Source: Lysobacterales bacterium
Lineage (GTDB): Bacteria; Pseudomonadota; Gammaproteobacteria; Xanthomonadales; Marinicellaceae
Length of the DNA stretch: 64,000 bases
Reading direction: 5' to 3'
NCBI GenBank assembly: GCA_027067055.1
Contig: JAMOMK010000104.1
Location: 59,572-123,571 of the forward strand
The notes under the pieces were generated by a model. It saw only the letters and a program-made list of their open reading frames with translations. It was not told the DNA's origin and did no database searches. The translations under genes and the position numbers were made by a program. This document shows, one piece after another, positions 17,170 to 54,604 of the stretch (the stretch's first letter is position 1; each line of letters opens with the position of its first letter).

Positions 17170-17694
17170 AACATTCGTAAATTTGGTTCTAAGACACCAG
17201 TAATTTATAAATCTGCTTATATCGATTCACAAGCCTGTGTTATTGGCGATGTAGAAATTGGTAAAAACTCATCAATCTGGCCAATGGCTGTTATACGTGG
17301 TGATGTTAATTTTATTAGAATTGGTCATAATACCAATATTCAAGATGGCAGTATACTACATGTCACCCATAAAGGTGAATACGGCGATGGTGCTCCTTTG
17401 ATAATTGGTAATAATGTTACTGTTGGTCATGGTGCCATTTTGCACGCTTGCACTATCGGCAACAATTGCCTCATCGGCATGGGAGCGACAATAATGGATA
17501 ATTGTATTATTGAAGATGATGCCATGATAGGAGCAGGTACGATGTTACCACCAAATAAGCACGTCAAGTCTAGAGAGTTATGGCTTGGAAATCCTGCTAA
17601 AAAAGTGAGAGAATTAACTGATGAACAGGTTCGACAAATAGACTATTCAGCACAACAATATATTAAATTAAAAAATAATTACAGCGAAGTTTAA
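17137..17694 (+). CDS. Gamma-class carbonic anhydrase family / hexapeptide-repeat protein (YrdA-like)
   Basis: Left-handed beta-helix hexapeptide repeats, IWP..V.RGDV..I.IG..TNIQDG..LH. Start uncertain; the 5' ends overlap the divergent DUF819 ORF. Confidence 0.8.
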   Translation: MFMHNFISPIQNIRKFGSKTPVIYKSAYIDSQACVIGDVEIGKNSSIWPMAVIRGDVNFIRIGHNTNIQDGSILHVTHKGEYGDGAPLIIGNNVTVGHGAILHACTIGNNCLIGMGATIMDNCIIEDDAMIGAGTMLPPNKHVKSRELWLGNPAKKVRELTDEQVRQIDYSAQQYIKLKNNYSEV

Positions 17695-17777
17695 GTTATT
17701 CAAAAGAATCCACATAAATATAATCCGTTGCTGCAAATAAAGTAAACTCTAACAAGGGTGAAATGGCAAAGTATTTT

Positions 17778-41050: not shown

Positions 41051-44000
41051 ACGTAATGATATAAAAAGCATTTTAGTATTAGGTGCAGGACCTATTGTTA
41101 TTGGACAAGCCTGTGAATTTGATTACTCAGGTACTCAAGCGTGTAAAGCTTTAATGGATGAAGGTTATAAAGTGATATTGGTGAACTCCAATCCTGCAAC
41201 CATTATGACTGACCCTGAAACAGCTGACAAAATATTTATTGAACCAATTAACTGGCAAACCGTTGCCAAAATTATTGAACAAGAACGTCCTGATGCGTTA
41301 TTACCAACAATGGGCGGACAAACGGCTCTCAATTGTTCATTAGATTTAGTTGCTCGTGGAGTTTTAGAGAAATTCGGTGTCGAAATGATTGGCGCAACCC
41401 GCGAAGCCATTGATATGGCTGAAGACCGTGAGTTGTTTAAAAAAGCCATGACCGAAATTGGTTTAGGTACTCCTACATCCTACCTAGTGCATGATATTGA
41501 AGAAGCACGTGTAGCACAGAAACAAATCGGCTACCCTGTTATTATTCGCCCATCTTTCACCATGGGCGGTTCTGGCGGTGGTATTGCTTACAATTTAGAA
41601 GAATTTGAAACCATTACAGCCAATGGTTTGAAACTCTCACCAACCTCAGAGGTTTTACTTGAAGAATCCTTGCTAGGTTGGAAAGAATTTGAAATGGAAG
41701 TGGTGCGAGACAAAAAAGACAATTGCATTATTATTTGCTCAATTGAAAACCTTGACCCAATGGGCGTACATACGGGTGACTCAATTACTGTCGCACCAGC
41801 ACAAACCTTAACCGATAAAGAATACCAAATTCTGCGAGATGCTTCTTTGGCTGTTTTGCGTAAAATTGGTGTAGATACTGGTGGTTCAAACGTACAGTTC
41901 TCAATCAATCCAGAAAATGGTCGTGTTATTGTCATTGAAATGAATCCACGGGTATCTCGTTCATCGGCTCTAGCCTCCAAAGCCACAGGGTTTCCAATTG
42001 CCAAAGTGGCTGCCAAATTGGCTGTTGGCTACACATTGGATGAATTGCAAAACGAAATAACAGGTGGAGCAACGCCTGCATCCTTTGAACCAAGTATTGA
42101 TTACGTGGTCACCAAAATACCACGCTTTGCTTTTGAAAAATTTGCCAAAGCAGACAATCATCTGACAACACAAATGAAGTCAGTTGGCGAAGTCATGGCA
42201 ATTGGTCGAACCTTTGCTGAATCCTTACAAAAAGCCCTACGCGGTTTGGAAACAGGGTTAAACGGACTGAATCCACTCATTACACAAGAAGATATTGATA
42301 AAGGTTTTGACCTTAACACCGAGTTACGCGAACCAACACAAGATAGGTTGCTTTATGTCGCTGATGCATTTCGTTTGGGCTATGATGTCGATAAATTATT
42401 CACTATTTCTAAAATAGATCCATGGTTTTTAGCAGAAATTGAACACATTATTCATGTCGAAGAAGCGATTGAAAAAAGTGAGGGTATTAATGCCAAACAA
42501 TTTCTTGCCATCAAACAACTTGGCTTCTCTGATAGTCGAATTGCAGAATTAATGGGCAAAGCCGAAAGTGAAGTCACCCAACTTCGCCATGACATGAATG
42601 TTCGTCCTGTTTACAAGCGTGTCGATTCGTGTGCAGCAGAGTTTGATGCTACCACCGATTATTTTTACTCCACCTACGAAGCTCACTGCGAAGCACGACC
42701 AACCAACAATAAAAAAATCATGATTCTTGGCGGCGGCCCCAATCGCATTGGGCAAGGCATTGAATTTGACTATTGCTGTGTGCATGCGGCATTAGCACTT
42801 AAAGAAGACGGCTTTGAAACCATCATGGTCAACTGTAACCCAGAAACCGTTTCCACCGATTATGACACAGCCAATCGCTTATACTTTGAACCCTTAACTC
42901 ACGAAGATGTGTTAGAAATCGTCAACATAGAAAAACCACACGGCGTTATCGTGCAATACGGTGGGCAAACACCTCTAAATTTAGCCAATGGCTTAAAAGC
43001 GGCAGGTGTTCCGATTATTGGTTCACAACCCGAATGCATTGACATGGCAGAGGACCGTGAGTTATTCAAAGCCATGTTAGATAAGCTAAAACTTAAACAA
43101 CCGCCTAATCGTATTGCCAAAAGCGTCGAAGAAGCAGTCGATTTAGCCAACCAAGTGGGTTATCCATTAGTTGTCCGCCCTTCATTTGTATTAGGCGGGC
43201 GGGCGATGGAAATCGTTCATAATGATAACGAACTCAACCGCTATATGAAAGAGGCAGTCAAAATATCCAATGACTCCCCTATTCTACTTGATCGATTTTT
43301 AGATCACGCTATTGAGGTTGATGTGGATATTATTTATGATGGCAAAGATGTTTTTATTGGTGGTATTATGGAACATATCGAACAAGCTGGAGTGCATTCA
43401 GGTGATTCATCTTGTTGTATTCCTCCTTTTTCACTCTCTGATGAAGTGCAAAAAGAATTAGGCAGACAATCAGGCTTAATGGCAAAAGAACTAGGCGTAG
43501 TTGGTTTAATGAATACGCAATTCGCCATTCAAGGTGAGGATATTTATATTTTGGAAGTGAATCCAAGAGCCTCGCGAACCGTGCCTTTTGTCTCAAAAGC
43601 CAGCGGAGTACCCTTGGCTAAAATTGCGGCTCGTTGTATGGCTGGTATCAGCCTAAAACAGCAAAATGTTAAAGAACGTCTAAAACTGAATCATTTTTCC
43701 ATCAAAGAACCGGTATTCCCATTTTTAAAATTTCCAGGTGTTGATCCAATTTTAGGACCGGAAATGCGATCAACCGGTGAAGTCATGGGCATAGGTAAAA
43801 CCTTTGGTGCCGCTGTTGCTCGCGCAAAGCAAGCAAGTGACACATCTATGCCATTGCAAGGAACCGCATTTATTTCTGTGCGTGAAGCCGATAAACAGCA
43901 AGTTATTCCCCTAGCTAAAACATTACAAGACATGGGTTTTGACTTAGTAGCAACCAGTGGAACTTGTCAATTATTGCGAGATAATGGCTTGTATTGCGAA

Positions 44001-44255
44001 AGAGTGAATAAAGTTTTGGAAGGCAGACCACATATAGTTGACAAAATTAAGTCAAAAGAAATAGAATTCATCATTAACACAACCGAAGGCTCTGGAGCCA
44101 TATCGGATTCATATTCTATACGTCGCGAAGCTCTGCAACAAAATATAAATTATTCCACCACTATCTATGGTGCTGCAGCAACATTGGAAGCGTATAAGTA
44201 TTTAAATAAACAAGAAATATATTCACTTGATGAATTACATGATTTAAGTGAGTAA
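41043..44255 (+). CDS. carB: Carbamoyl-phosphate synthase large subunit
   Basis: Start at ATG 41043 ([32 protein letters not shown]), 8 nt overlap with carA. Duplicated ATP-grasp halves and an MGS-like C-terminus. Confidence 0.95.
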
Positions 44256-44278
44256 ACTACAAGATAAGAGGATAGAAA

Positions 44279-44752
44279 ATGGCATTAGCTCCATTAACTG
44301 CAACTGGTGCAGAACGATTAAAAAAAGAACTTAAAAGACTGAAAACAGAAGAAAGGCCGCGTATTATTGAAGCCGTTGCAGAAGCACGTGCTCATGGTGA
44401 TTTAAAAGAAAACGCAGAATACCATGCAGCACGTGAAGAACATGGCATGAACGAAGCGCGTATCAAATATTTAGAAGGCACCATTTCAAATGCTCAAATT
44501 ATTGACATCCATAGCTTGAATGTTGGTGACAAAGTGGTATTTGGTGCAACAGTTACACTAGAAGATGATGATGAAAATGAAGTGACTTATCAGATTGTTG
44601 GCGATGTTGAGGCGGAAATTGAAAAAGGTCAAATCTCCATTTCTTCACCTATTGCACGGGCTTTAATTGGTAAAGAGTTAGATGATGAAGTCGAAGTACA
44701 AACACCAGGTGGCAATAAAACTTATTACATCATTAAAGTTAAGTACATATAA
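44279..44752 (+). CDS. greA: Transcription elongation factor GreA
   Basis: [26 protein letters not shown] and the FKBP-like C-terminus. Confidence 0.9.
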
Positions 44753-44755
44753 ATT

Positions 44756-45298
44756 TTATTTGAATTTATTACAAAAAAACCCACTTGGCAAAAGTGGGTT
44801 TTTCATTTGCAGGGTGCTACTTAGTGCCCCACCAAAATCAAGCATTAATTCTTTGATTTTATTTTCTGACTTTTCAGCTCTCATTGCATACCAGCTGATG
44901 ATTTCACTATCACTCATTGAGTCAAGGGATGTCGCTATCGCGCGGTAGGTATTAACCCGGAACCCGGTAATCAATGGGGTCAAAGCATTTGATTTACCTT
45001 CCTTTTTTATGAATTCAACGCTTCTTTTGAGCCTTGCCTTTAAAGGAGCTATAGAGGTCAACACCCTTAAATGCCAAGTCATTGTTTTAATTAAATATTT
45101 GACAACAAATTGACAACATCTATAAAAGCTTTCTTGATTAATAAAAAAACCACCGCTAGGGTTGTGTTTGATATAAGTTTGAAGACGTGACATTTCTGCT
45201 CTAATTGCATGGTGTGAGAGGTCTTCGAACTTGAGTTTAACAAAAATGATTAATGTTATCCAATTGTATTTAATCAATTGGTGGAATAAAGTTTTCAC
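44756..45298 (-). CDS. Hypothetical 180-aa ORF downstream of Fic; its last 15 codons are encoded by the greA terminator hairpin
   Basis: ORF only; may be spurious or a gene remnant. Confidence 0.3.
   Translation of the reverse strand: MKTLFHQLIKYNWITLIIFVKLKFEDLSHHAIRAEMSRLQTYIKHNPSGGFFINQESFYRCCQFVVKYLIKTMTWHLRVLTSIAPLKARLKRSVEFIKKEGKSNALTPLITGFRVNTYRAIATSLDSMSDSEIISWYAMRAEKSENKIKELMLDFGGALSSTLQMKNPLLPSGFFCNKFK
44772..44801. terminator. Bidirectional intrinsic terminator (A-run, ACCCACTT-ggca-AAGTGGGT, T-run) after greA
   Basis: Read directly. Confidence 0.6.
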
Positions 45299-46415
45299 TT
45301 TCTAATTGCTGAATCAACCCTCTCATAAGATAGTTGTTTTGAAATGATACATAATATTCTCGACCTTTTTCCTTGGTTGGCGATATTAATTTGCTAGATT
45401 TCAGCTTAGCTATTAATAAAGTTATTTGCCTTGTTGATAAGTTGAGTTTTAATTTGCTTATATCAAGTGATTTGAATGTTTGTTTTACAACTCCCATTTT
45501 CAATACCTTTGCTTCTGTAGCAGTAATTAACTCGCGTTCACGCCCTTTACTAATAGCTGGTTTAAGAATGTTTGCGACCAAGTAATCATGGTCAAGTAAC
45601 TTATTGATTTTTGAAATTTCAGCACTGACACCTGTTAGCACATACTCGCACCATTGAAGCATCGAATCTTCAGTTCCTCTATCTGCAATTGATAGCATTT
45701 TATAATACATATCTCTATCGTTACAAAAAACAGCGGTAGGATTGAGTAATTGTCCATCTTGCACCCTAAATCCATATTTAATCAATAAAGCGTAAGTCAA
45801 TAGCCTAACCACACGACCATTGCCATTACCAAATGGATGAATCCAAACGAACCTATGGTGGGCAATAGCCACTTTTATTAAATCAAATTTTTCTTTATTA
45901 TCATCATTGATAAAGTCAACCAACTCGTCCATGTAAGGTTGAACCATATGTGGTTCAGGTGGCGTATGTTTTGATTGTGAAATATCAACTTGCCATGACC
46001 GGTAAGCACCTGGGGTTTTATCGCCTTCATTTTTTAAATTTGTAACAGTAAGTTGATGCAATTCTCGAATGAAGTGATTAGTGATAGGAGTTCCAGTTTC
46101 AATGCTTTGTTCGATATATTCCATTGCACGTTCTACATTGGCAATTTCCTTAAATGTATCAGTAGAATTTTCCTTTTGTTCAATCTTAGTTTCAATGTAT
46201 TCAGATATGGTTGTTCTATTGCCTTCAATACGTGCAGAACCCACACTTTCCAGTAAATGAAATATCTTTTTTAACTGAAAAAATAGATAAGGTGATGTTG
46301 TGCCCCGTAATTGTGAACGTCTAAGATAATTCAACTCCATAATTGCATCTAGCAACTTAGAATCAAATGCTGGGCTGACTAATTTTAGTTCGTTTTTTGT
46401 ATTGTTTGTAGTCAT
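45270..46415 (-). CDS. Fic/DOC-family protein (AMPylase-type)
   Basis: Fic motif HPFGNGNGRVVR (HPFx[DE]GNGR). Confidence 0.8.
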   Translation of the reverse strand: MTTNNTKNELKLVSPAFDSKLLDAIMELNYLRRSQLRGTTSPYLFFQLKKIFHLLESVGSARIEGNRTTISEYIETKIEQKENSTDTFKEIANVERAMEYIEQSIETGTPITNHFIRELHQLTVTNLKNEGDKTPGAYRSWQVDISQSKHTPPEPHMVQPYMDELVDFINDDNKEKFDLIKVAIAHHRFVWIHPFGNGNGRVVRLLTYALLIKYGFRVQDGQLLNPTAVFCNDRDMYYKMLSIADRGTEDSMLQWCEYVLTGVSAEISKINKLLDHDYLVANILKPAISKGRERELITATEAKVLKMGVVKQTFKSLDISKLKLNLSTRQITLLIAKLKSSKLISPTKEKGREYYVSFQNNYLMRGLIQQLESENFIPPID

Positions 46416-46626
46416 AATATTTGCAATTATTTACTTAGATAATTAACATTATTTACCATATGTTTAAATTTTATATACATATATAGTAGATACTATATTG
46501 ATATCATTGATTATTTTACCATAAGGACAATGAATTTATTTACGTTATATCGTAACATTAAGTACATTAACGGTATACTTTATTTACAATTTATACAGTT
46601 ATTTGTATTTGACAATACATGACTAA

Positions 46627-47210
46627 GTGTATCTTATAAGTTACAATACCCAAATGATTGAAATTATCAAATATGCAGCAGAACATGACTGGTGTCCTTT
46701 TGATATTTGGTTAGATGGTTTAAAAGATCTAAGAGCAAAGGCTCAAATACTGGTAAGGTTAAATAGGCTAGAACTAGGTAATGAAGGTCATTGGCGGTCA
46801 GTTGGTAAGGGCGTTAGAGAATTAAAAATATCAGTCGGCAAAGGCCTGTACAGAGTGTAAAAGTATTCTGATGACGAGTATAAATGGCATAAAATACGCT
46901 ACTATTACTGCGTATCGTCCTTGATACTTGCCTACATCCATGTAGGTTTACATGAAAATCCTTTCCATAAGGATTTTTCGTTGAAAAACTTGGAATTAGC
47001 CAGCTAGTCACAGCGCTTTCCACCTCTATTAGCGAACTTTCTACTCATTTTTCTTTCGCCCCATAATACTTTCACATTCTGTATTGGGTTTATTATGGTT
47101 GGACTGGTAAAGAAATCGTTTTATTATTATGTGGTGGTGATAAATCCACGCAAGACAAAGACATTAAAAAAGCCAAACAATATTGGAGTGATTACAATGA
47201 GCAAAGCTAA
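46627..47210 (+). pseudogene. Disrupted HigB/RelE-superfamily toxin ('addiction module killer', COG3657-like)
   Basis: The first 77 codons are intact (..RAKAQILVRLNRLELGN..VGKGVRELKISVGKGLYRV) and then hit a stop. The homologous C-terminal segment ..TGKEIVLLLCGGDKSTQDK.. reappears about 240 bp downstream in another frame. A further frame change precedes ..KKAKQYWSDYNE, which overlaps the antitoxin start. Confidence 0.55.
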
Positions 47211-47481
47211 AGCATTTAAAACAAGTGATTATTTAAAATCAAATGAAGACAGAGCCGAATATTTAAAAGCCATCATGGCACAAAATAATGAAGGCTTGCT
47301 AATGCTTGCCATTCGTGAAATCATTGATTCTATGGGTGGTATTGGCAAACTAGCTAAGGAAACTGGTTTAGCAAGGGAAAGTCTATACCGTACATTTAGC
47401 AAAAAAGGAAACCCAACTTATAATACTTTATTCAAAGTATTGGATAATATCGGTTTACAATTGAGTGTATCAGTTAAATAG
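47197..47481 (+). CDS. HigA-like HTH antitoxin ('addiction module antidote protein', COG3636-like)
   Basis: MSKAKAFKTSDYLKS.EDRAEYLKAIM.. followed by an HTH (LAKETGLARESLYRTFS). Start at ATG 47197. Confidence 0.7.
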   Translation: MSKAKAFKTSDYLKSNEDRAEYLKAIMAQNNEGLLMLAIREIIDSMGGIGKLAKETGLARESLYRTFSKKGNPTYNTLFKVLDNIGLQLSVSVK

Positions 47482-47610
47482 TTTTCTTACACTATTAATA
47501 GCATTAATTAAGGTTTGCAAATGGTGAAAATTAAAAATAATTGTTGGTATATTTGTTGGTATAAAATTATATTAGCACTGAATTTATGTTGAAAAACAAG
47601 GACTTGTGAC

Positions 47611-47663
47611 AAAAAATGGTGCCCGGTCTCGGAATCGAACCAAGGACACGAGGATTTTCAATC
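47611..47663 (-). repeat. attR: 53-bp direct repeat containing the 3' 47 nt of tRNA-Phe (a duplicate of 54523-54575)
   Basis: Exact match read by eye: aaaaaatggtgcccggtctcggaatcgaaccaaggacacgaggattttcaatc at both sites. Confidence 0.85.
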
Positions 47664-47845: not shown

Positions 47846-49708
47846 TTATTTACTTATTGCTTTTACTATTCTATCTGGGTTAATCAATACATCACGCAGT
47901 AATAATTTATACGGAAACTGTTTATGTTTGTTAGATTTCTTAAAACTCTCAAATATTTTAATTAGTGATGATGCAGTCATTAGTGATAAATCTAAGTCGC
48001 TATCAAGTTCACAGTCCTCTATAAAATCATCACTGAAATCTGGTGCAATTAATAACATTTTTCTTACTTCAAAATTATGTTTCTTAGCTAATTCATAATA
48101 AGCTTTTAGTTGTCTAGAGACTGATGAAAATTTATTATATCCACTCTCCTTAATGGTTTTACATTCTATAATGATGTAGTCATTGTTTTCTAAATTAATA
48201 AGAATATCCATTTTATCTTTTTTAGTATTTATTTTCTTTCTTAGTGATTCATCAACATTAAAACCTAATTTCTCAAAAATATCTTTTGTAAGCTCTTCAA
48301 ATTTTATTCCAAGTTCGCTTTCCTTAATTTTAATGCCATTTTCCTTTAAAGCATTTAAATTTCTAAAACCAATATTTTCAAAGTTTTCAAAATATAAATT
48401 CTCAGTATCTCTATAATTATCTAGTATATTTAAAACCTCATCCCCTCTTTTCTTAATATCATTTTTCTCACAAAAATCTAACAACTCCTTATGCTTTGTC
48501 AGATAAAGAATATCTCTAGGTTTAATATTGTAATCAAGTAATAATGTACTTTTTAAAACAAACTCCTCTTGTAACTCGAATGCTTCTTTAATTTGCTTAT
48601 TCAGTTTAGGCAAAGTTCTATTTAAATCCTGTAATAGTTTCTCATAACCATCTATTGAAATTCCAACTTTCTCATCTTTTTCTTTGCTTTCAAAATAATT
48701 AATTAAGTTGATAATTTTATCATCCAATGTAATACCTTTGAGTACGGTTTTTGAATTTGAAATTTTACTCCAAATATTATTAACATATTTCTTTTTGGTA
48801 GTTAAATTTGTTCCTTCCTTATGGACTGAACTTGTTAATATAGTTGTAAGATTAACACCTTCTTTTATAACTTCTTCAATTTTATCTTCTGCACTTAATA
48901 GTTTATTAATATTATGTTTTTTGGCAATTATATTAATTTCAGGAATTCTAAAGTTTTTCAAAACTCTTCTTAAATATTTATCAGCAACATCTTTTCCTCT
49001 GATTTTTCTTAGAATTTTAACCATTTCATCAGCAACATAAATTGTATTCAATTTCTTAGAAAAGAATATCACACCAATATTTTTAAGGTTATTAATTATC
49101 TGAATGATATCCATTTTAATAATTGGAATAACCCTATAGTTAAGTAACTTTATTTCTTCTTGTGATAGTTCAAGCTTTTTTGATAGTGTGATTAGAATGG
49201 ATAATTCATCATCTGTAATTTTTGAATCTCTATTATTTAACAAATCATTTTTATATGCAGTAGTTACACATGAGTGGTAAATACTATAATCTCTTTTTCT
49301 TTCATATGTTAATTCTGATTTTTCATCCTTAATTGATACCTGAATATCTTTAACTTTTTTCTTTAGGTTCTTTAATTCTTTGTCATACAATCTTGAAAAC
49401 CAATCCAGTTTCATAATATTGTTGCCATCTTTAGCAATGATATCTATTAGAATGTCTAGTTGTGATGATGTATCAATAAATTCATCTTTGATAGATTTTG
49501 CGAATTCATTTGCAATTAATTGGAATATTTTAGAAATATTTAAGCTATCAAATGACTTTAATCCTTTGTCTGAAGAGCTAATGATTTTATTTATTTCTTT
49601 GAAGTTTTTCGGCTTCTCTTTTTCACTAGATATAATATTGTCAATTATTTTTATGAATGCATTTTTTTCTAGAGAACCTAAGTTATCCAATATTTTTTCA
49701 AGTTTCAT
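47846..49708 (-). CDS. Large orphan protein (620 aa from the ATG with an AGGGA RBS) with a C-terminal PD-(D/E)xK nuclease-like motif. Candidate defence cargo.
   Basis: C-terminal ..NDYIIIECKTIKESG.. (D-x-ExK). Extremely AT-rich, Lys/Asn/Ile-rich. No other recognisable domain. Confidence 0.6.
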   Translation of the reverse strand: MKLEKILDNLGSLEKNAFIKIIDNIISSEKEKPKNFKEINKIISSSDKGLKSFDSLNISKIFQLIANEFAKSIKDEFIDTSSQLDILIDIIAKDGNNIMKLDWFSRLYDKELKNLKKKVKDIQVSIKDEKSELTYERKRDYSIYHSCVTTAYKNDLLNNRDSKITDDELSILITLSKKLELSQEEIKLLNYRVIPIIKMDIIQIINNLKNIGVIFFSKKLNTIYVADEMVKILRKIRGKDVADKYLRRVLKNFRIPEINIIAKKHNINKLLSAEDKIEEVIKEGVNLTTILTSSVHKEGTNLTTKKKYVNNIWSKISNSKTVLKGITLDDKIINLINYFESKEKDEKVGISIDGYEKLLQDLNRTLPKLNKQIKEAFELQEEFVLKSTLLLDYNIKPRDILYLTKHKELLDFCEKNDIKKRGDEVLNILDNYRDTENLYFENFENIGFRNLNALKENGIKIKESELGIKFEELTKDIFEKLGFNVDESLRKKINTKKDKMDILINLENNDYIIIECKTIKESGYNKFSSVSRQLKAYYELAKKHNFEVRKMLLIAPDFSDDFIEDCELDSDLDLSLMTASSLIKIFESFKKSNKHKQFPYKLLLRDVLINPDRIVKAISK

Positions 49709-49842
49709 TTTACTATCCCTTTTTATAATATGACCTCTAAAACAATAAATTTCACAAATATAGAACAATAAATTTTTGATTTAGTGGATGTTCATTCCAA
49801 GTATATCATATAGAAATTAAATTATTAATAATATTGAAGATG

Positions 49843-50361
49843 TCATTTTCCGTTTGTAAGTGCAGAAAGAGACTTTTCTATCATCTTTTGGCTCTCAGCT
49901 CCCATTTCTTGCCATTGTTCAATGCTTAATGGCTCTGTGGTGACTATGTAGCCTGTTTCCCTTACATTTGTTGTAATATTTGAATCAATAGCTTTACGGC
50001 TTGCCCATTGCTCGGGTTGACGGTTATTAAGCCAATATATGCACGCTACTACATCAGGCGGATAGTGTTTAATGAATGGTGTCTTGGTTATTTTACCTTG
50101 ATAGTTGCTTATATGGGTTTCTTCATGGCTGTATCCAATGGCACGTTCTGCCAGTGCCCTTTCAACTTTCCTATCAAAATCTTGTTTACTTCTTTTTAAG
50201 GACTTGCAAAACTCTGGATATTTTATTTTCCATCGGTTTATTGTTGACTCATTCACATTGAAAAATTCACCAATTTGGTAATCAGTAAAACCATGTAAGC
50301 ATAGATTGCTTGCTTGCTCTATGTATTCTGTTTTAAATTTTGTTGGTCTTGTCATATTCAT
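49843..50361 (-). CDS. Phage terminase small-subunit-like protein (Terminase_2-like HTH)
   Basis: MTRPTKFKTEYIEQASNLCLHGFTDYQIGEFFNVNESTINRWKIKYPEF resembles TerS N-terminal HTH domains. Confidence 0.55.
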   Translation of the reverse strand: MNMTRPTKFKTEYIEQASNLCLHGFTDYQIGEFFNVNESTINRWKIKYPEFCKSLKRSKQDFDRKVERALAERAIGYSHEETHISNYQGKITKTPFIKHYPPDVVACIYWLNNRQPEQWASRKAIDSNITTNVRETGYIVTTEPLSIEQWQEMGAESQKMIEKSLSALTNGK

Positions 50362-50604: not shown

Positions 50605-51081
50605 TTATAAAATATTTACCTCCCTTACTAAACTGTATTTCATTTGCTCAGGATATAACTGTTGCTTATAGTCTTTTAATACGAAACCAACTGTAATTTC
50701 AATCGGTTGTTGTTGTAGCTTAGTTATAGGTATTTGGTCAAACCTGACTTTGGGATGTAATGGTAAAAGCTTATAGAAATCTTTGAGGAAATCACCTCTC
50801 GGCTTTACTATAAATTTACCTTTATTACGTGCTTTACCTTTTAGCTTTTTGACGTTGTAATATTTGGCTATATCAATACCAAAATATTCACCCTCGGTAA
50901 TTGTATAAATCAAAACAACTTTAGGTTGTTTAAATAATGTACCAGTAAACCACGTTTTCATAACGGCTTCATATTTGCCTTTTGGGATTAATGGAAGGTC
51001 TCCATTTTGTATATTATTGGTATCGTATGTGGTACAATCCAAATCAGAATGCAGTGGTATAACATTTGAAGTCTTTTTCAT
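50605..51081 (-). CDS. Hypothetical island protein (158 aa)
   Basis: ORF within the island; overlaps the next gene by 4 nt. Confidence 0.45.
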   Translation of the reverse strand: MKKTSNVIPLHSDLDCTTYDTNNIQNGDLPLIPKGKYEAVMKTWFTGTLFKQPKVVLIYTITEGEYFGIDIAKYYNVKKLKGKARNKGKFIVKPRGDFLKDFYKLLPLHPKVRFDQIPITKLQQQPIEITVGFVLKDYKQQLYPEQMKYSLVREVNIL

Positions 51082-51404
51082 GATTGCTCTCCATTCGATA
51101 TGAAAGTATCATCATTGGCAGCTTTCTCGTAAAAAGCTGCTAATGAATTTCTTGCTATTTTATGCATGTGTACAGGTAAGATATACCGTCCTGGTCTTGT
51201 TTTAATTGAATCCCTGTCAAGCATCGTGAATCGTATAGTTTCAATTTCCCATCCTTTTAGGATTAATTGTCTTTTAACTTCAGCTACATTCTGAGAGCCT
51301 ACTTTTGGCTTCAGGTCTTTAAGTGTTTCTGTTTTCGCTAATATGAAACTAATTAATCTTGCTTCTCTTTGCGTGTGTATAGGAAGTGTTATATTCTCGT
51401 ACAT
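51078..51404 (-). CDS. Hypothetical island protein (108 aa)
   Basis: ORF, coupled by a 1-nt overlap with the upstream alpA-like gene. Confidence 0.45.
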   Translation of the reverse strand: MYENITLPIHTQREARLISFILAKTETLKDLKPKVGSQNVAEVKRQLILKGWEIETIRFTMLDRDSIKTRPGRYILPVHMHKIARNSLAAFYEKAANDDTFISNGEQS

Positions 51405-51613
51405 TACGCGGCACTCCTATTGTTGTTAATAGAATCAAGCCATGTAAAAAACAGATTTTCATCTATTAAAATTTTCCGACCTATGCGCACGATTACACCA
51501 TGTTTATTTAAGCCGTTTGTTTCAGCGTTAAAGATTAAAGCTCTAATGCCACCATTTGTAAATGCTGTATTGTCATCAAGGAATTGATTGACAGATTTTA
51601 AATTTGTACTCAT
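51404..51613 (-). CDS. AlpA-family phage transcriptional regulator / excisionase-like
   Basis: ..GLNKHGVIVRIGRKILIDENLFFTWL matches the AlpA C-terminal pattern (G.R...W.E.E...W). Confidence 0.5.
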   Translation of the reverse strand: MSTNLKSVNQFLDDNTAFTNGGIRALIFNAETNGLNKHGVIVRIGRKILIDENLFFTWLDSINNNRSAA

Positions 51614-51805
51614 TTGTTCACCTATATAGTAAATTATTAATAATGTAGAAAACTATTCGTTTCTACTGTAATTCACAGCTGTTTAGCAGTTGTGAGTCTA
51701 TCATCATAATGAACTATGTTACCATTTCAAATGGTATTGAAAGTATCGAAATGTATCGATGGTATTGTCAGGTATTTGACATGGTATTAAGGGAAAGTAT
51801 ATGTT

Positions 51806-53095
51806 TCATTTTGCAAAAGAACATAGTTTTGCATCTCTAAAAAATGCATTAATAGTATTAGTTTTACGTGAGTCAAATAACTTTCCACTGAAACAATCAG
51901 GATATTCGTTATCTAAAAAATAATCCTCTAGTTCTTCCCATATTATATTTTTAGTTTTTCCTTGTAGTATAGTTTCTGTAATTCTTGAACATATTTCTAT
52001 GTTTTTAGATGCCAAATAATCTTTAAAAACACTCTCTCTTTGAATTTGTTCTTTTGATTTCTTTTTTTCCTGTTTAATTTTTTGAATGGGGTAATTTTTA
52101 TCTAGCCACTTATTGAATTTAATTGTATCAATTAGAATGTCTGAAATAAAATTATCTATCACTATTGATTTGCTGTGGTTTACCATAAAATCTATTTTTG
52201 TATATCTCTCTATCGCGGTTAGTGTATTTGATGTAATCGAACGTATTAGAAAATTTATTAACTTAACCTTTGTAATCATGTTTTCGTTAAACGTATATTT
52301 GTTGCTATTTGAAATTCTTTTAAAAATCATTTCAATTGCATATGGCACGGTTATGTAATTTTTTATTTCTTCAGTATTTTGTTTTTCTATTCCCTTGATG
52401 AATAAATTGTTAATTCTGTCAACTAGCTCGAGGTGTTCTTCATCTATTTCATCAAAAATTATAAATGCTTTTTTTAATACACCTGCCAATTTCGCATAAG
52501 AAAATATATCTTCATAATAGTAAAATTTTCGAATCTCTGGGAAATCTTTATAACCGATATTAAATGTTCTATTTTTAATACTTTCACAATATTTTTCTTC
52601 TAATATCTTGTCTTCAATTTCTTCATAGGTATATATGTCCGAGCCATATAAAATTTTATTTAAGTTTCTATAACTGACCATTAATTTTTTATGTGTCGAT
52701 TTCTCCCCATCAATTCTTGTATTCAAAATATCGAATATTACATATATATTTTTATCATTAAAACTGTGGTCATCAAGCTTAATACTTGTAGTTTCTGGCA
52801 GGGATGTAAAAGTTTTATCTTTTACCTCAATTATACAAATCGGCTTGTAGTAACCTTTTAGAATAAAGAAATATTCTTTGTCTCTAAAGTTTTTAGCCAC
52901 TACTGAATTATCCCCAGTGTAAAAAGCACCCAGTACTTCACCACTAATATGAAAATATGTATTTTTATCAATTGCTTTTTGGAAAGTTGGTATATTATTA
53001 AATTCAAAAATTACTTGTAATTGATTGGTTTCAATAAACTTGTTTTTTGGTGCTTCCTTAGGTATTTCCATATTTCTATCCAAATATCTTTTCAT
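51806..53095 (-). CDS. Large orphan island protein (429 aa) with an N-terminal ExK-containing beta-strand motif (KPICIIEVKDK)
   Basis: ORF overlapping the integrase 3' end by 20 nt. Extremely AT-rich. Possible PD-(D/E)xK-like motif, weak. Confidence 0.5.
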   Translation of the reverse strand: MKRYLDRNMEIPKEAPKNKFIETNQLQVIFEFNNIPTFQKAIDKNTYFHISGEVLGAFYTGDNSVVAKNFRDKEYFFILKGYYKPICIIEVKDKTFTSLPETTSIKLDDHSFNDKNIYVIFDILNTRIDGEKSTHKKLMVSYRNLNKILYGSDIYTYEEIEDKILEEKYCESIKNRTFNIGYKDFPEIRKFYYYEDIFSYAKLAGVLKKAFIIFDEIDEEHLELVDRINNLFIKGIEKQNTEEIKNYITVPYAIEMIFKRISNSNKYTFNENMITKVKLINFLIRSITSNTLTAIERYTKIDFMVNHSKSIVIDNFISDILIDTIKFNKWLDKNYPIQKIKQEKKKSKEQIQRESVFKDYLASKNIEICSRITETILQGKTKNIIWEELEDYFLDNEYPDCFSGKLFDSRKTNTINAFFRDAKLCSFAK

Positions 53096-54131
53096 TCATA
53101 GAAGCCACCACAGTGCTTGTGTGGCTATCTGATAGGTGTGCGTAACGCTTAACCATTTGTAAGGTCTTATGCCCTAGTATCTCGGCTATCTCAGCTAGGC
53201 TTGCGCCATCCATGGCAAGGTATGAAGCGGCTGAATGTCTAAGGTCGTGAAATTTAAAATCTTCGATTTCTGCCTGTGCCATTAAGTCAGTCCAAATATT
53301 ACGGATAAAATAGGGTGAAGTGGGTTTGTTACCATAGAAAACAAAATTGGTATCAATTCGCCTTATTGAATTATGCTTTTTTAATACTTCAAAGGCATGT
53401 CCTGAAATTGGTATCCTGCGTCTTTCGTCGTTCTTTGATTCGTGAATGATTAAATAACCCTCTCTTAAGTTTAGGTCATTCCATTTAAGATTGAGAATTT
53501 CGCCTTGACGCATTCCTGTGGATAAAGCCAGTACAATAATGGCATAAATATGTGGGTTTTTATATTGGCTTGCAGAATTTAAAAGTCGTTGCCTTTCATC
53601 ATCAGATAGAAACCGTACACGTCCACGCGGTTCTTTGGGTCTTTTAACCTTTCTCATGGGATTGTCATCTATCCATTCCCATTCATTAACTGCGGTGGTA
53701 AATACATGCGATAAAGCAGCCATATAGCGTACAACGGTTGACGGTGAGCGTTTTTTGCCGTTGGGTACTTTTTCAGTTAATAGTTTTTCTTTAATCTCAA
53801 CAATGCGACTTGCATTGATTTCTGATAGTAGATAAACACCCAATTCTTTTTTCCATCTTAATAATTGGGGGGTACGTTGTTTTATGCTTTTGGGTGTTTC
53901 AGGAAGTTTAACCTCTAGGTATCTATCAATCATTTCACCAAAGGTATGCTTTTTGGACTCAATGGTTTTGAAGTGCCTACCATGTCGAATATCGGATTCG
54001 GTATCAGATGCCCACTTTTTTGCATCGGTCAATCTGTGAAAGGTAGCTGTTTGCTGTGGATAGCCTTTTAATCTGATTTGTACTTGATAGGTGGTTTGAC
54101 CTTTAGTGGTTCGCTTTTTGATAGATGCCAT
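53076..54131 (-). CDS. int: Tyrosine-type site-specific integrase (P4-like)
   Basis: N-terminal SAM-like/arm-binding region. Catalytic R..H..R..Y context (HDLRHSAASYLAMDG...GHKTLQMVKRYAHL). Confidence 0.9.
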   Translation of the reverse strand: MASIKKRTTKGQTTYQVQIRLKGYPQQTATFHRLTDAKKWASDTESDIRHGRHFKTIESKKHTFGEMIDRYLEVKLPETPKSIKQRTPQLLRWKKELGVYLLSEINASRIVEIKEKLLTEKVPNGKKRSPSTVVRYMAALSHVFTTAVNEWEWIDDNPMRKVKRPKEPRGRVRFLSDDERQRLLNSASQYKNPHIYAIIVLALSTGMRQGEILNLKWNDLNLREGYLIIHESKNDERRRIPISGHAFEVLKKHNSIRRIDTNFVFYGNKPTSPYFIRNIWTDLMAQAEIEDFKFHDLRHSAASYLAMDGASLAEIAEILGHKTLQMVKRYAHLSDSHTSTVVASMNEKIFG

Positions 54132-54528
54132 TTGTATAATCCTTATTAACTAAGGACATTGTATAGTAAGTGACAATTAAACACAACATCGGATTAATAA
54201 TCCTAGTGTATAAAATGCACCATCCTTGCTATATAAGGCTTTTATCCTTGTTTGTGCAACGTTTTAGGTAATTTGCCACACTTGCAACACACTCACAACG
54301 AAAAACAAGCCACCACAGGTAAAATTTTTACCCTTTAAGTATTGAATTTTCAAGTACTGCACAGGCAATGGATTTAATTAAAAGTTGATTATGGTTTGAT
54401 GTGAATTGTTACTAAATAACGTGATTTCTTATTTTCAAGTGTGTTGAAAGTGTGGCATTTATAAAAAACAATAAGTTTTCATATTGTTTTTTATTGGTGT
54501 AAGTGATTGATTTGTAACGTTTAAAAAA

Positions 54529-54604
54529 TGGTGCCCGGTCTCGGAATCGAACCAAGGACACGAGGATTTTCAATCCTCTGCTCTACCGACTGAGCTAACC
54601 GGGC
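54529..54604 (-). tRNA. tRNA-Phe (GAA)
   Basis: Reverse complement GCCCGGTTAGCTCAGTCGGTAGAGCAGAGGATTGAAAATCCTCGTGTCCTTGGTTCGATTCCGAGACCGGGCACCA is near-identical to E. coli tRNA-Phe. Confidence 0.95.

What the first reader, a model, noticed from the sequence alone, without database searches (positions are those of the whole stretch)
47846..49708. Island cargo: 620-aa orphan protein with a C-terminal PD-(D/E)xK-like nuclease motif, a candidate single-gene anti-phage effector
The C-terminal about 120 aa contain ..MDILINLENNDYIIIECKTIKESGYNKFSS..QLKAYYELAKKHNFEVRKMLLIAPDFSDD.. This is a D...ExK arrangement typical of restriction-endonuclease-fold nucleases.

The N-terminal 450 aa are Lys/Ile/Asn-rich with no recognisable motif, possibly a sensor or oligomerisation region. 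The gene sits at the att-distal end of a satellite-like island, a classic defence hotspot. A good RBS (AGGGA) lies 7 nt upstream of the ATG at 49708.
Basis: partly seen in the sequence, partly recalled or inferred. Interest (0 to 1): 0.7.

Follow-up and report, generated by a model that had tools for sequence, protein, structure and literature searches.

The report
Stand-alone FokI-type nuclease on phage satellite
The gene encodes a DNA-cutting enzyme from a large, uncharacterised family of marine Bacteroidota; it travels alone with no protective methylase, here as cargo of a small mobile phage-satellite island, and is most likely an anti-phage restriction-type nuclease, though that is untested.

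Summary
The ORF (47846-49708, minus strand, 620 aa), the quoted motif and the AGGGA ribosome-binding site are real. "Orphan" is wrong: more than 2,700 homologues exist and 397 species genomes encode a relative, nearly all ~617 aa.

- **N-terminal region.** The 450 aa form a conserved all-helical region with a winged helix. It does not resemble the FokI recognition domain, and there is no sequence-level link to FokI.
- **No partner.** No methyltransferase or other gene recurs in 91 loci.
- **Island.** An exact 53-bp att repeat bounds a 6.96-kb tRNA-Phe island (integrase, terS, the nuclease last). The identical island lies in a second genomic context, and a related island carries Fic in the distal slot.
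- **Cassettes.** A minority of relatives sit in co-oriented arrays of covariation-supported attC-like hairpins. The window copy has none.

Best reading: a methyltransferase-less modular endonuclease, probably a Type IV-like defence gene. Nuclease identity is well supported; the defence role is inferred. New variant of a known kind, moderate interest.

The parts
47846..49708 (-). CDS of the 620-aa nuclease (stop codon 47846-47848)
   Evidence: ORF and translation. Full-length homologues of about 617 aa. Full-length match to phrog_34709.
47849..48331 (-). C-terminal PD-(D/E)xK cleavage domain (about aa 460-620), FokI/BspD6I type
48098..48208 (-). Catalytic residue codons: D501 (48206-48208), E515 (48164-48166), K517 (48158-48160), Q533 (48110-48112), Y537 (48098-48100)
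   Evidence: Invariant in the alignment of 21 diverse members. Codon coordinates were computed from ATG 49708.
48353..49708 (-). N-terminal conserved all-helical region (aa 1-452), a putative DNA-binding or sensor module
48989..49231 (-). Winged-helix domain (about aa 160-240: three helices plus a beta-hairpin wing) carrying the motifs S.DE.SIL..LA..L.LS..E, G212 and IYIPDE
   Evidence: Secondary structure H166-178, H183-193, H201-211, E215-217, E222-224. Winged-helix hits to TubR, Cdc6/Orc1, ORC2, FUR and DpnI. The domain boundaries are my inference.
49709..49842 (-). Upstream region: AGGGA at 49716-49720, and TATATTTG at 49755-49762, which matches the Bacteroidetes -7 promoter consensus TAnnTTTG
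   Evidence: Read from the sequence. The promoter assignment is inferred from the published Bacteroides consensus and was not tested.
49843..50361 (-). Terminase small subunit homologue (172 aa), immediately upstream of the nuclease
   Evidence: phrog_309, E = 8e-43. 42-53 % identical to TerS on viral contigs.
50605..53095 (-). Island backbone genes: 158 aa (50605-51081, weak SSB-like match), 108 aa (51078-51404), 69 aa (51404-51613) and 429 aa (51806-53095, a near-orphan)
   Evidence: The backbone is shared with related islands L101 and L102.
53076..54131 (-). Tyrosine integrase of the island
   Evidence: Phage_integrase E = 6e-35. phrog_1 E = 6e-74.
54523..54575 (.). att copy overlapping the 3' end of tRNA-Phe (tRNA at 54529-54604, minus strand)
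   Evidence: Exact 53-bp repeat. tRNA called by ARAGORN and Rfam.
47611..47663 (.). Distal att copy, the island boundary
   Evidence: Exact 53-bp repeat. Contig L103 is 100 % identical to the window from 50708 to 47610 and unrelated beyond.
45092..47610 (.). Outside the island: a relic of an earlier related island. It holds Fic (45270-46415, minus strand) and a HigB/HigA-type pair (toxin fragments at 46654-46857 and 47100-47207; antidote ORF 47095-47481).
   Evidence: Pfam. Window 46613-45092 is 82-89 % identical to the distal Fic cargo of island L102, which ends in its own att-like repeat.

Best explanation
The gene encodes a modular, stand-alone DNA endonuclease. An N-terminal region of about 450 aa is all-helical and contains a winged helix. 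It would bind or sense DNA and position a C-terminal PD-(D/E)xK cleavage domain of the FokI/BspD6I type (catalytic D501, E515, K517).

The family has no cognate methyltransferase or any other constant partner, so it cannot work as a classical restriction-modification pair. The most likely mechanism is Type IV-like: the N-terminal module recognises a feature of foreign DNA that the host lacks, such as a base modification or another phage-specific DNA feature, and the nuclease domain then cuts nearby, probably after dimerising as FokI does.

The gene spreads horizontally as a single-gene unit. A minority of relatives lie inside integron-type (attC-like) cassettes. In this window it has been picked up as the distal accessory gene of a 6.96-kb phage-satellite-like island integrated at tRNA-Phe, where it would protect the host and the satellite against other phages.

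Shown: the fold, the conserved active site, the solitary and mobile distribution, and the island structure and its mobility.

For: - Active site: invariant D501/E515/K517/Q533/Y537 across members down to about 30 % identity.
- Model quality: AlphaFold pLDDT 89.4, pTM 0.83.
- N-terminal region: confidently folded, with winged-helix matches to DNA binders (TubR, Cdc6/Orc1 on origin DNA, FUR, DpnI).
- No partner gene: no neighbour family recurs across 91 loci. Among 142 nearest neighbours there are 146 Pfam families, none in more than 2 loci, and no recurrent DNA methyltransferase.
- Horizontal spread: low GC relative to flanks (28.7 % against 35.6 % on average); 60-64 % identity even in other phyla.
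- Defence-type neighbourhoods in some relatives.
- Island: att repeats, integrase and terS, the identical island in a second context, and a variable distal slot.
- Precedents from the literature: methyltransferase-less Type IIS-like nucleases act as modification-dependent defence (PMC12191111). Stand-alone winged-helix-nuclease fusions are m6A-dependent Type IV enzymes, and absence of a neighbouring methyltransferase is used there as the criterion (PMC11037411). Small marine satellites carry terS and defence genes (PMC9618062).
Against: - No PADLOC model matches.
- No deposited phage record carries the gene, and only one IMG/VR contig does.
- Most homologues lie between ordinary housekeeping genes rather than in recognisable defence islands.
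- 60-78 % identity across orders is unusually high for a restriction enzyme. It points to one constant target and does not fit diversifying specificities.
- Nuclease activity, DNA binding and phage resistance were not measured.
Confidence: 0.5

Rival explanations
1. It is a selfish, homing-type endonuclease. The nuclease cuts empty target sites or recombination sites and so promotes the spread of its own gene or cassette, with no benefit to the host.
For: The gene is solitary and sits in unrelated positions with homology confined to the ORF and short ends. It is highly conserved across taxa. One genome holds two copies that share 102 bp of upstream sequence.
Against: There is no conserved target or flanking sequence. 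The gene does not interrupt other genes, and there is no intron or intein context. Where its ends are defined, they are attC-like sites of a type recombined by an integrase in integrons, not by a PD-(D/E)xK nuclease. At 620 aa with a large DNA-binding region, it is atypical for homing enzymes.
Confidence: 0.12
2. It serves the satellite's own life cycle. Together with the adjacent TerS it would cut DNA for packaging, or degrade the helper phage genome so that the satellite is packaged instead.
For: It lies directly downstream of terS on the same strand in the window and in L103. PD-(D/E)xK nucleases do take part in some packaging and interference schemes (general knowledge).
Against: Across the homologue loci no neighbour family recurs, including among 142 nearest-neighbour ORFs, so terS is not a constant partner. 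A related island lacks both genes and carries Fic instead. The gene has its own 134-nt upstream region with a promoter-like motif.
Confidence: 0.1
3. It is a classical Type IIS restriction endonuclease or nickase whose protective methyltransferase is encoded elsewhere in each genome.
For: The best full-length structural matches are FokI and Nt.BspD6I.
Against: No DNA methyltransferase recurs in the neighbourhoods, and there is none in the 6.96-kb island that carries the gene between hosts. A mobile restriction gene arriving without its methylase would kill a new host. The N-terminal region does not resemble the FokI or BspD6I recognition domains. There is no sequence-level relation to FokI.
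Confidence: 0.08
4. It is a housekeeping DNA repair or recombination nuclease (NucS/EndoMS-like or Mrr-like) that merely happens to lie in an island here.
For: NucS and AF1548 appear among the fold matches. Many homologues sit next to housekeeping genes.
Against: The distribution is patchy: 397 of 185,579 species genomes. Positions are variable with no synteny. GC is lower than the flanks. Some relatives occur in attC-like cassettes, IS-rich regions and a satellite.
Confidence: 0.05

Closest known systems
FokI (Type IIS restriction endonuclease) and the BspD6I nickase with its small catalytic subunit
   Different: There is no detectable sequence similarity. The N-terminal region does not match the FokI or BspD6I recognition domains when searched alone. 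The motif is D-x13-E-x-K, whereas FokI has D-x16-D-x-K (my reading of the verified FokI sequence). There is no cognate methyltransferase anywhere in the family's neighbourhoods.
Modification-dependent (Type IV) modular endonucleases, e.g. winged-helix-nuclease fusions (DpnI and relatives, PMC11037411) and END nucleases (PMC12191111)
   Same: All are stand-alone enzymes without a methyltransferase, built from a modular DNA-sensing region plus a nuclease domain, often mobile and single-gene. A winged helix is present here too.
Mrr-family catalytic domain (Pfam PF04471)
   Different: The score of 15.8 bits is below the curated cut-off of 21 bits, and the N-terminal architecture is unrelated to Mrr.
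Integron gene cassettes that carry defence genes (sedentary chromosomal integrons, bioRxiv 10.1101/2024.07.02.601686)
   Same: Part of the family sits as a single-gene unit between co-oriented imperfect-palindrome sites with AAC...GTT ends, arranged in arrays. This layout matches attC sites.
   Different: No integron integrase lies within 10 kb of the arrays. Complete integrons are reported as almost absent from Bacteroidetes (PMC9024848). The window copy has no such site. No cassette system described in that paper corresponds to this protein.
Small marine phage satellites (VEIMEs; PICI-like elements, PMC9618062)
   Same: The island is about 7 kb, has a tyrosine integrase, integrates at a tRNA gene, encodes a terminase small subunit and carries an accessory nuclease. 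It is demonstrably mobile.
   Different: No recognisable primase or replication gene was found, since the 429-aa protein is a near-orphan. Helper dependence and packaging are untested.

Membership tests
PD-(D/E)xK nuclease superfamily | Catalytic D ... (D/E)-x-K motif conserved across the family | tested here: met
   D501, E515 and K517 are invariant in 21 members down to 27-30 % identity.
PD-(D/E)xK nuclease superfamily | Restriction-endonuclease-like alpha/beta core fold | tested here: met
PD-(D/E)xK nuclease superfamily | Metal-dependent phosphodiester cleavage | not testable with these tools
   Needs biochemistry.
FokI-type Type IIS restriction endonuclease | Separate C-terminal cleavage domain with the FokI fold | tested here: met
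FokI-type Type IIS restriction endonuclease | N-terminal recognition domain homologous to FokI D1-D3 or the BspD6I recognition domain | tested here: not met
FokI-type Type IIS restriction endonuclease | Sequence membership (Pfam FokI domains, or profile similarity to FokI) | tested here: not met
   No Pfam FokI family matches. hhalign of the family profile against the verified FokI cleavage domain gives probability 0.5 %. PDB sequence searches are empty.
FokI-type Type IIS restriction endonuclease | Cognate DNA methyltransferase encoded alongside | tested here: not met
   There is none in the island. No DNA methyltransferase family recurs among 142 nearest neighbours or across 91 loci.
Mrr_cat (PF04471) | Score at or above Pfam's gathering threshold | tested here: not met
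   15.8 bits against a cut-off of 21 bits, E = 0.016.
Type IV / modification-dependent restriction endonuclease | Stand-alone enzyme without a protecting methyltransferase | tested here: met
   This criterion is used in PMC11037411.
Type IV / modification-dependent restriction endonuclease | Recognisable modification-reader domain (SRA, EVE/PUA, YTH, DpnI-type winged helix) | tested here: inconclusive
Type IV / modification-dependent restriction endonuclease | Cleavage depends on modified DNA | not testable with these tools
   Needs assays on modified and unmodified substrates.
Known anti-phage defence systems (PADLOC-DB v2) | Match to a defence-protein model | tested here: not met
   0 families at E <= 1.
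Integron gene cassette | ORF followed by an attC-type imperfect palindrome with AAC...GTT outer boxes, an unpaired spacer and a covarying inner stem | tested here: not met
   Not met for the window copy: there is no significant model hit near it, and its flanks are unrelated to those of relatives.

Met for a minority of relatives. 39 sites at E < 0.01 all lie on the gene's strand. 11 of 17 stem pairs covary, 91.8 % of cells are paired against 79 % in shuffles and 29-40 % when slid. The boundary motifs occur in 13/82 and 19/82 loci against 1.5 % and 5.7 % of control windows.
Integron gene cassette | Integron integrase (IntI) next to the array | tested here: not met
   A phmmer search with a tyrosine recombinase found one unrelated hit in 91 loci of +/-10 kb. 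Whole genomes could not be searched.
Phage satellite (PICI / VEIME-like island) | Integrase plus att repeats at a tRNA gene, small size, and a packaging gene (terS) | tested here: met
   The island is 6.96 kb. The identical island occurs in a second context.
Phage satellite (PICI / VEIME-like island) | Own replication module, and helper-phage-dependent induction and packaging | not testable with these tools
   The 429-aa candidate has no family match and only 3 relatives. The rest needs experiments.

The most novel reading that the evidence does not exclude
The family is a previously unrecognised, widespread single-protein immune nuclease of marine Bacteroidota with a new kind of foreign-DNA sensor in its N-terminal 450 aa. 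It is disseminated partly as integron-type (attC-like) gene cassettes in a phylum considered almost devoid of integrons, and phage satellites such as the one in this window capture it from there.
Probability: 0.25. Interest if true: 0.7.

Novelty: new variant of a known kind. Interest (0 to 1): 0.5.

Why it matters
If the family is a methyltransferase-less defence nuclease, it would add a common, compact single-gene immune system for marine Flavobacteriia and other Bacteroidota, which are poorly covered by current defence catalogues.

Its N-terminal region would be a new DNA-sensing module. Its FokI-type cleavage domain could interest enzyme engineers.

The attC-like cassette arrays around some relatives suggest that integron-style gene shuffling, or something that mimics it, operates in Flavobacteriia. 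That is worth a dedicated look.

For this window specifically, the work shows a small active phage-satellite-like island with a swappable distal cargo slot.

Tried and rejected
- **Sequence searches.** Searches of the protein and of its family profile against PDB found nothing. NCBIfam gave only noise, PADLOC nothing and deposited phage genomes nothing.
- **Conserved element ends.** I tested whether DNA homology extends beyond the ORF. Between the window and L001 it stops at the ORF ends. The window's flanks are no more similar to those of its closest relatives than shuffled sequence.
- **First attC finder.** My rigid regex-and-ungapped attC finder failed and was replaced by motif extraction and a covariance model.
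- **19-nt similarity after the window's stop codon.** This stretch (TTAACATACATAAAAAATA) resembles the left arm of the relatives' sites. The model does not support it even with filters off, so I do not claim it.
- **'FokI family member'.** Rejected after the N-terminal-only fold search and the profile comparison.
- **Related islands via the 429-aa protein.** Viral and metagenome contig scans found none. A protein search found three relatives.
- **terS relatives on viral contigs.** These were ordinary phages or differently organised small contigs, not the same island type.
- **Short contigs.** The many ~2-kb contigs carrying the gene could reflect assembly breaks at repeats. They could equally come from the length bias of metagenome contigs, so I draw no conclusion from them.
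Full report
**Observation.** The longest ORF begins at TTG 49768, but every homologue starts at the MKL of ATG 49708. AGGGA lies exactly 7 nt upstream of that ATG. A TATATTTG at 49755-49762 fits the Bacteroidetes -7 promoter consensus; that is my inference from published consensus and was not tested. The gene is about 25 % GC in a 35-43 % GC background.

**Not an orphan.** A search of 5.8 billion proteins returned 2,792 hits at E<=1e-3 among the 8,000 candidates scored. The best 120 are all about 617 aa and 65-78 % identical, with no Pfam annotation, and are named 'hypothetical protein' where named at all. An exhaustive HMMER search of cluster representatives found 323 clusters at E<=1e-3. About 25 of them are full length, and they diverge to about 30 % identity. 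397 species-representative genomes encode a relative. Most are Flavobacteriales, Bacteroidales, Cytophagales and Saprospiraceae, with scattered MAGs of other phyla that are still 60-64 % identical. The protein matches phrog_34709 (function unknown) end to end. It is absent from deposited phage genomes and present on one IMG/VR contig. Three Pseudoalteromonas megaplasmids carry a copy at 35 % identity.

**The protein.**
- *Active site.* In an alignment of 21 diverse full-length members, D501, E515, K517, Q533 and Y537 are invariant. This is a complete PD-(D/E)xK core followed by a QxxxY motif, which I read from memory as the RecB/Cas4-type motif IV; that assignment was not tested here.
- *Pfam.* Only a sub-threshold Mrr_cat match appears on this stretch (15.8 bits against a cut-off of 21).
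- *Full-length model.* AlphaFold with this alignment gave a confident model (pLDDT 89.4, pTM 0.83).
- *Sequence-level test.* A profile comparison of the family with the FokI cleavage domain shows no sequence relationship.
- *Conclusion.* The cleavage domain is of the FokI/BspD6I structural type. The N-terminal 450 aa are a distinct, conserved, all-helical region. It contains a winged helix at about residues 160-240 and, by my reading of the helix pattern, two SAP-like helix-extended-helix motifs. This protein is not a member of the FokI family.

**No partner gene.**
- I clustered all ORFs within 6 kb of the gene in 91 loci. No family recurs apart from redundant contigs of one locus.
- The 142 nearest-neighbour ORFs of about 75 non-redundant loci hit 146 different Pfam families, none in more than two loci, and no DNA methyltransferase family recurs.
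- The neighbours are a mixture of housekeeping genes (gyrB, dnaK, SHMT, transketolase) and a minority of defence-type genes (DRT-like reverse transcriptases, mad3/mad8, AriA/PtuA-like ATPases, PDC candidates).
- The Pseudoalteromonas copy lies among HNH, metallophosphoesterase, DEAD-helicase and NERD genes.
- One metagenomic locus has a GmrSD-like gene a few kb away, and another is embedded in IS elements.
- The gene is on average 7 GC points below its flanks.

**How the gene moves in relatives.** DNA homology between loci is confined to the ORF plus short ends. Those ends turned out to be structured sites.
- Directly after the stop codon, many relatives have '...AGCC(C)AGNNNNYAAC-AAT-GTATATAAAAAATAGGCG...'. 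About 130 or 200 nt later comes '...CGCCTACTTTTCATATAC-TAACC-GTTAGCA'.
- Eleven such elements align as an imperfect palindrome. The outer AAC/GTT boxes are invariant, and an unpaired spacer separates them from a 17-bp inner stem in which 11 pairs show compensatory double changes.
- 91.8 % of cells are paired, against 79 % in shuffles (0/500) and 29-40 % when the partner is slid.
- Single-stranded DNA folds give long hairpins with z-scores of -2 to -3.
- A covariance model finds 39 sites at E<0.01 in 83 loci, all on the gene's strand. They form arrays. L090 (Bizionia argentinensis) has eight sites, most directly after stop codons. In L073, L078 and L014 the gene is bracketed exactly by two sites.
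- A conserved cassette start ('G|TTACCAACAAG' or 'G|TTAGGCACAAG') lies about 50 nt before the ATG.
- This layout matches integron attC sites (R''-spacer-L'' ... L'-spacer-R'). That comparison rests on my knowledge of attC structure.
- Caveats: only a minority of loci carry the boundary motifs (13/82 downstream and 19/82 upstream, against 1.5 % and 5.7 % of control windows). No tyrosine recombinase lies near the arrays. IntegronFinder 2.0 reported that complete integrons are almost absent from Bacteroidetes (PMC9024848). I therefore call these 'attC-like, CALIN-like arrays' and do not claim integrons.
- The window copy has no such site, and its flanks are unrelated to those of its closest relatives.

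**The island in the window.**
- *Bounds.* An exact 53-bp direct repeat (54523-54575 and 47611-47663) contains the 3' end of tRNA-Phe.
- *Gene order.* The repeats bound 6.96 kb, read along the minus strand from the tRNA-Phe end: a tyrosine integrase; a 429-aa protein with only three relatives in 5.8 billion proteins; small ORFs; a 158-aa protein with a weak SSB-like match; a terminase small subunit (phrog_309, E = 8e-43); and the nuclease as the last gene.
- *Class.* This fits the small marine phage satellites described from virus particles (PMC9618062).
- *Mobility and boundary.* Contig L103 carries the identical protein and is 100 % identical to the window from 50708 through the att repeat to 47610. 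It is unrelated beyond that point and is followed by a resolvase gene.
- *Variable distal slot.* Island L101 shares the backbone through terS at about 74 % identity and has an extra 224-aa ORF next to att. Island L102 shares the backbone at 82 % identity up to the 158-aa gene. It then continues directly into a Fic gene and ends in an att-like repeat, 25 of 26 nt.
- *Relic outside the island.* The L102 Fic segment is homologous to window 46613-45092, which lies outside the present att site. The HigBA/Fic stretch next to the island is therefore probably the relic of an earlier related island at the same tRNA-Phe site.

**Mechanism.**
- *Shown:* a conserved PD-(D/E)xK active site in a FokI-type cleavage domain; a large conserved helical N-terminal region containing a DNA-binder-type winged helix; a strictly solitary, horizontally mobile gene; and carriage here by an active satellite-like island.
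- *Inferred:* the N-terminal region binds DNA and provides self/non-self discrimination. The absence of any methyltransferase argues against classical restriction-modification and for a Type IV-like mode. Workers on winged-helix-nuclease fusions apply this same criterion (PMC11037411). A methyltransferase-less Type IIS-like nuclease has been shown to defend against hypermodified phages (PMC12191111).
- *Open points:* dimerisation for double-strand cleavage is expected by analogy with FokI and is untested. The unusually high conservation across taxa suggests a constant target rather than diversifying sequence specificities, which is compatible with a modification or structural cue.

**Rivals.** I considered a selfish homing-type nuclease, a satellite packaging or interference function linked to terS, a Type IIS enzyme with an unlinked methylase, and a housekeeping repair nuclease. 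The report sections give the evidence for and against each. None is excluded by computation alone, but each fits the distribution less well.

**Verdict.** The nuclease and island-cargo parts of the interpretation are supported, and the defence role remains a reasonable but untested inference. The protein is a new variant of a known kind: a modular PD-(D/E)xK restriction-type nuclease with a novel N-terminal module and no methylase. Interest is moderate.

Noticed in passing
L090:6924-20582; L073:93-2972; L078:123-2278; L014:1-7104; L004:9907-18913: There are co-oriented arrays of ~130- or ~200-nt imperfect palindromes with invariant AAC...GTT ends and a covarying stem, most directly after stop codons, in Flavobacteriia and other Bacteroidota. 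They look like integron attC sites (CALIN-like arrays), but no integrase lies within 10 kb, and integrons are reported as nearly absent from this phylum.
   Followed up: partly
window 46849-47083: A ~235-bp insert with 22-nt terminal inverted repeats (46849-46870 and 47062-47083, 86 % complementary) splits a HigB/Gp49-type toxin gene. The two fragments (46654-46857 and 47100-47207) pass Pfam's Gp49 threshold only when joined (25.4 bits against a 23.9-bit cut-off). It looks like a MITE that inactivated the toxin next to an intact antidote gene. Rfam finds nothing there.
   Followed up: partly
window 45092-47610: The Fic gene and its upstream region outside the current att site are 82-89 % identical to the distal cargo of the related island L102. 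This stretch is probably the relic of an earlier island at the same tRNA-Phe site. No second att remnant was found in 43001-47600.
   Followed up: partly
window 51806-53095: The 429-aa protein next to the integrase is the real near-orphan of the island. It has only three relatives in 5.8 billion proteins and no Pfam or PHROG match. It sits where a satellite replication or primase gene would be expected.
   Followed up: partly
L101:102-983: A related island carries an extra 224-aa ORF of unknown function between the att site and the integrase. This is a second variable cargo position.
   Followed up: no
L031 and L034 (Salinimicrobium flavum, two contigs): One genome holds two copies of the nuclease gene in different contexts. 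They share 102 bp of upstream sequence at 94 % identity, and their downstream sequences are unrelated.
   Followed up: no
window 17650-17733 and about 35586 (minus strand): There is a weak match to the attC-like model (13.5 bits, E about 1) and a separate left-arm motif match elsewhere in the window. Both may be chance.
   Followed up: no
P0077: A 69 % identical homologue is labelled as coming from a Promethearchaeota (Asgard archaeon) MAG. This is either a binning artefact or cross-domain transfer.
   Followed up: no
L010:6476-17842 (Pseudoalteromonas donghaensis megaplasmid): The 35 % identical homologue lies in a cluster with an HNH endonuclease, a metallophosphoesterase plus a P-loop protein, a large DEAD/DEAH helicase and a NERD-domain protein. 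This looks like a defence island.
   Followed up: no
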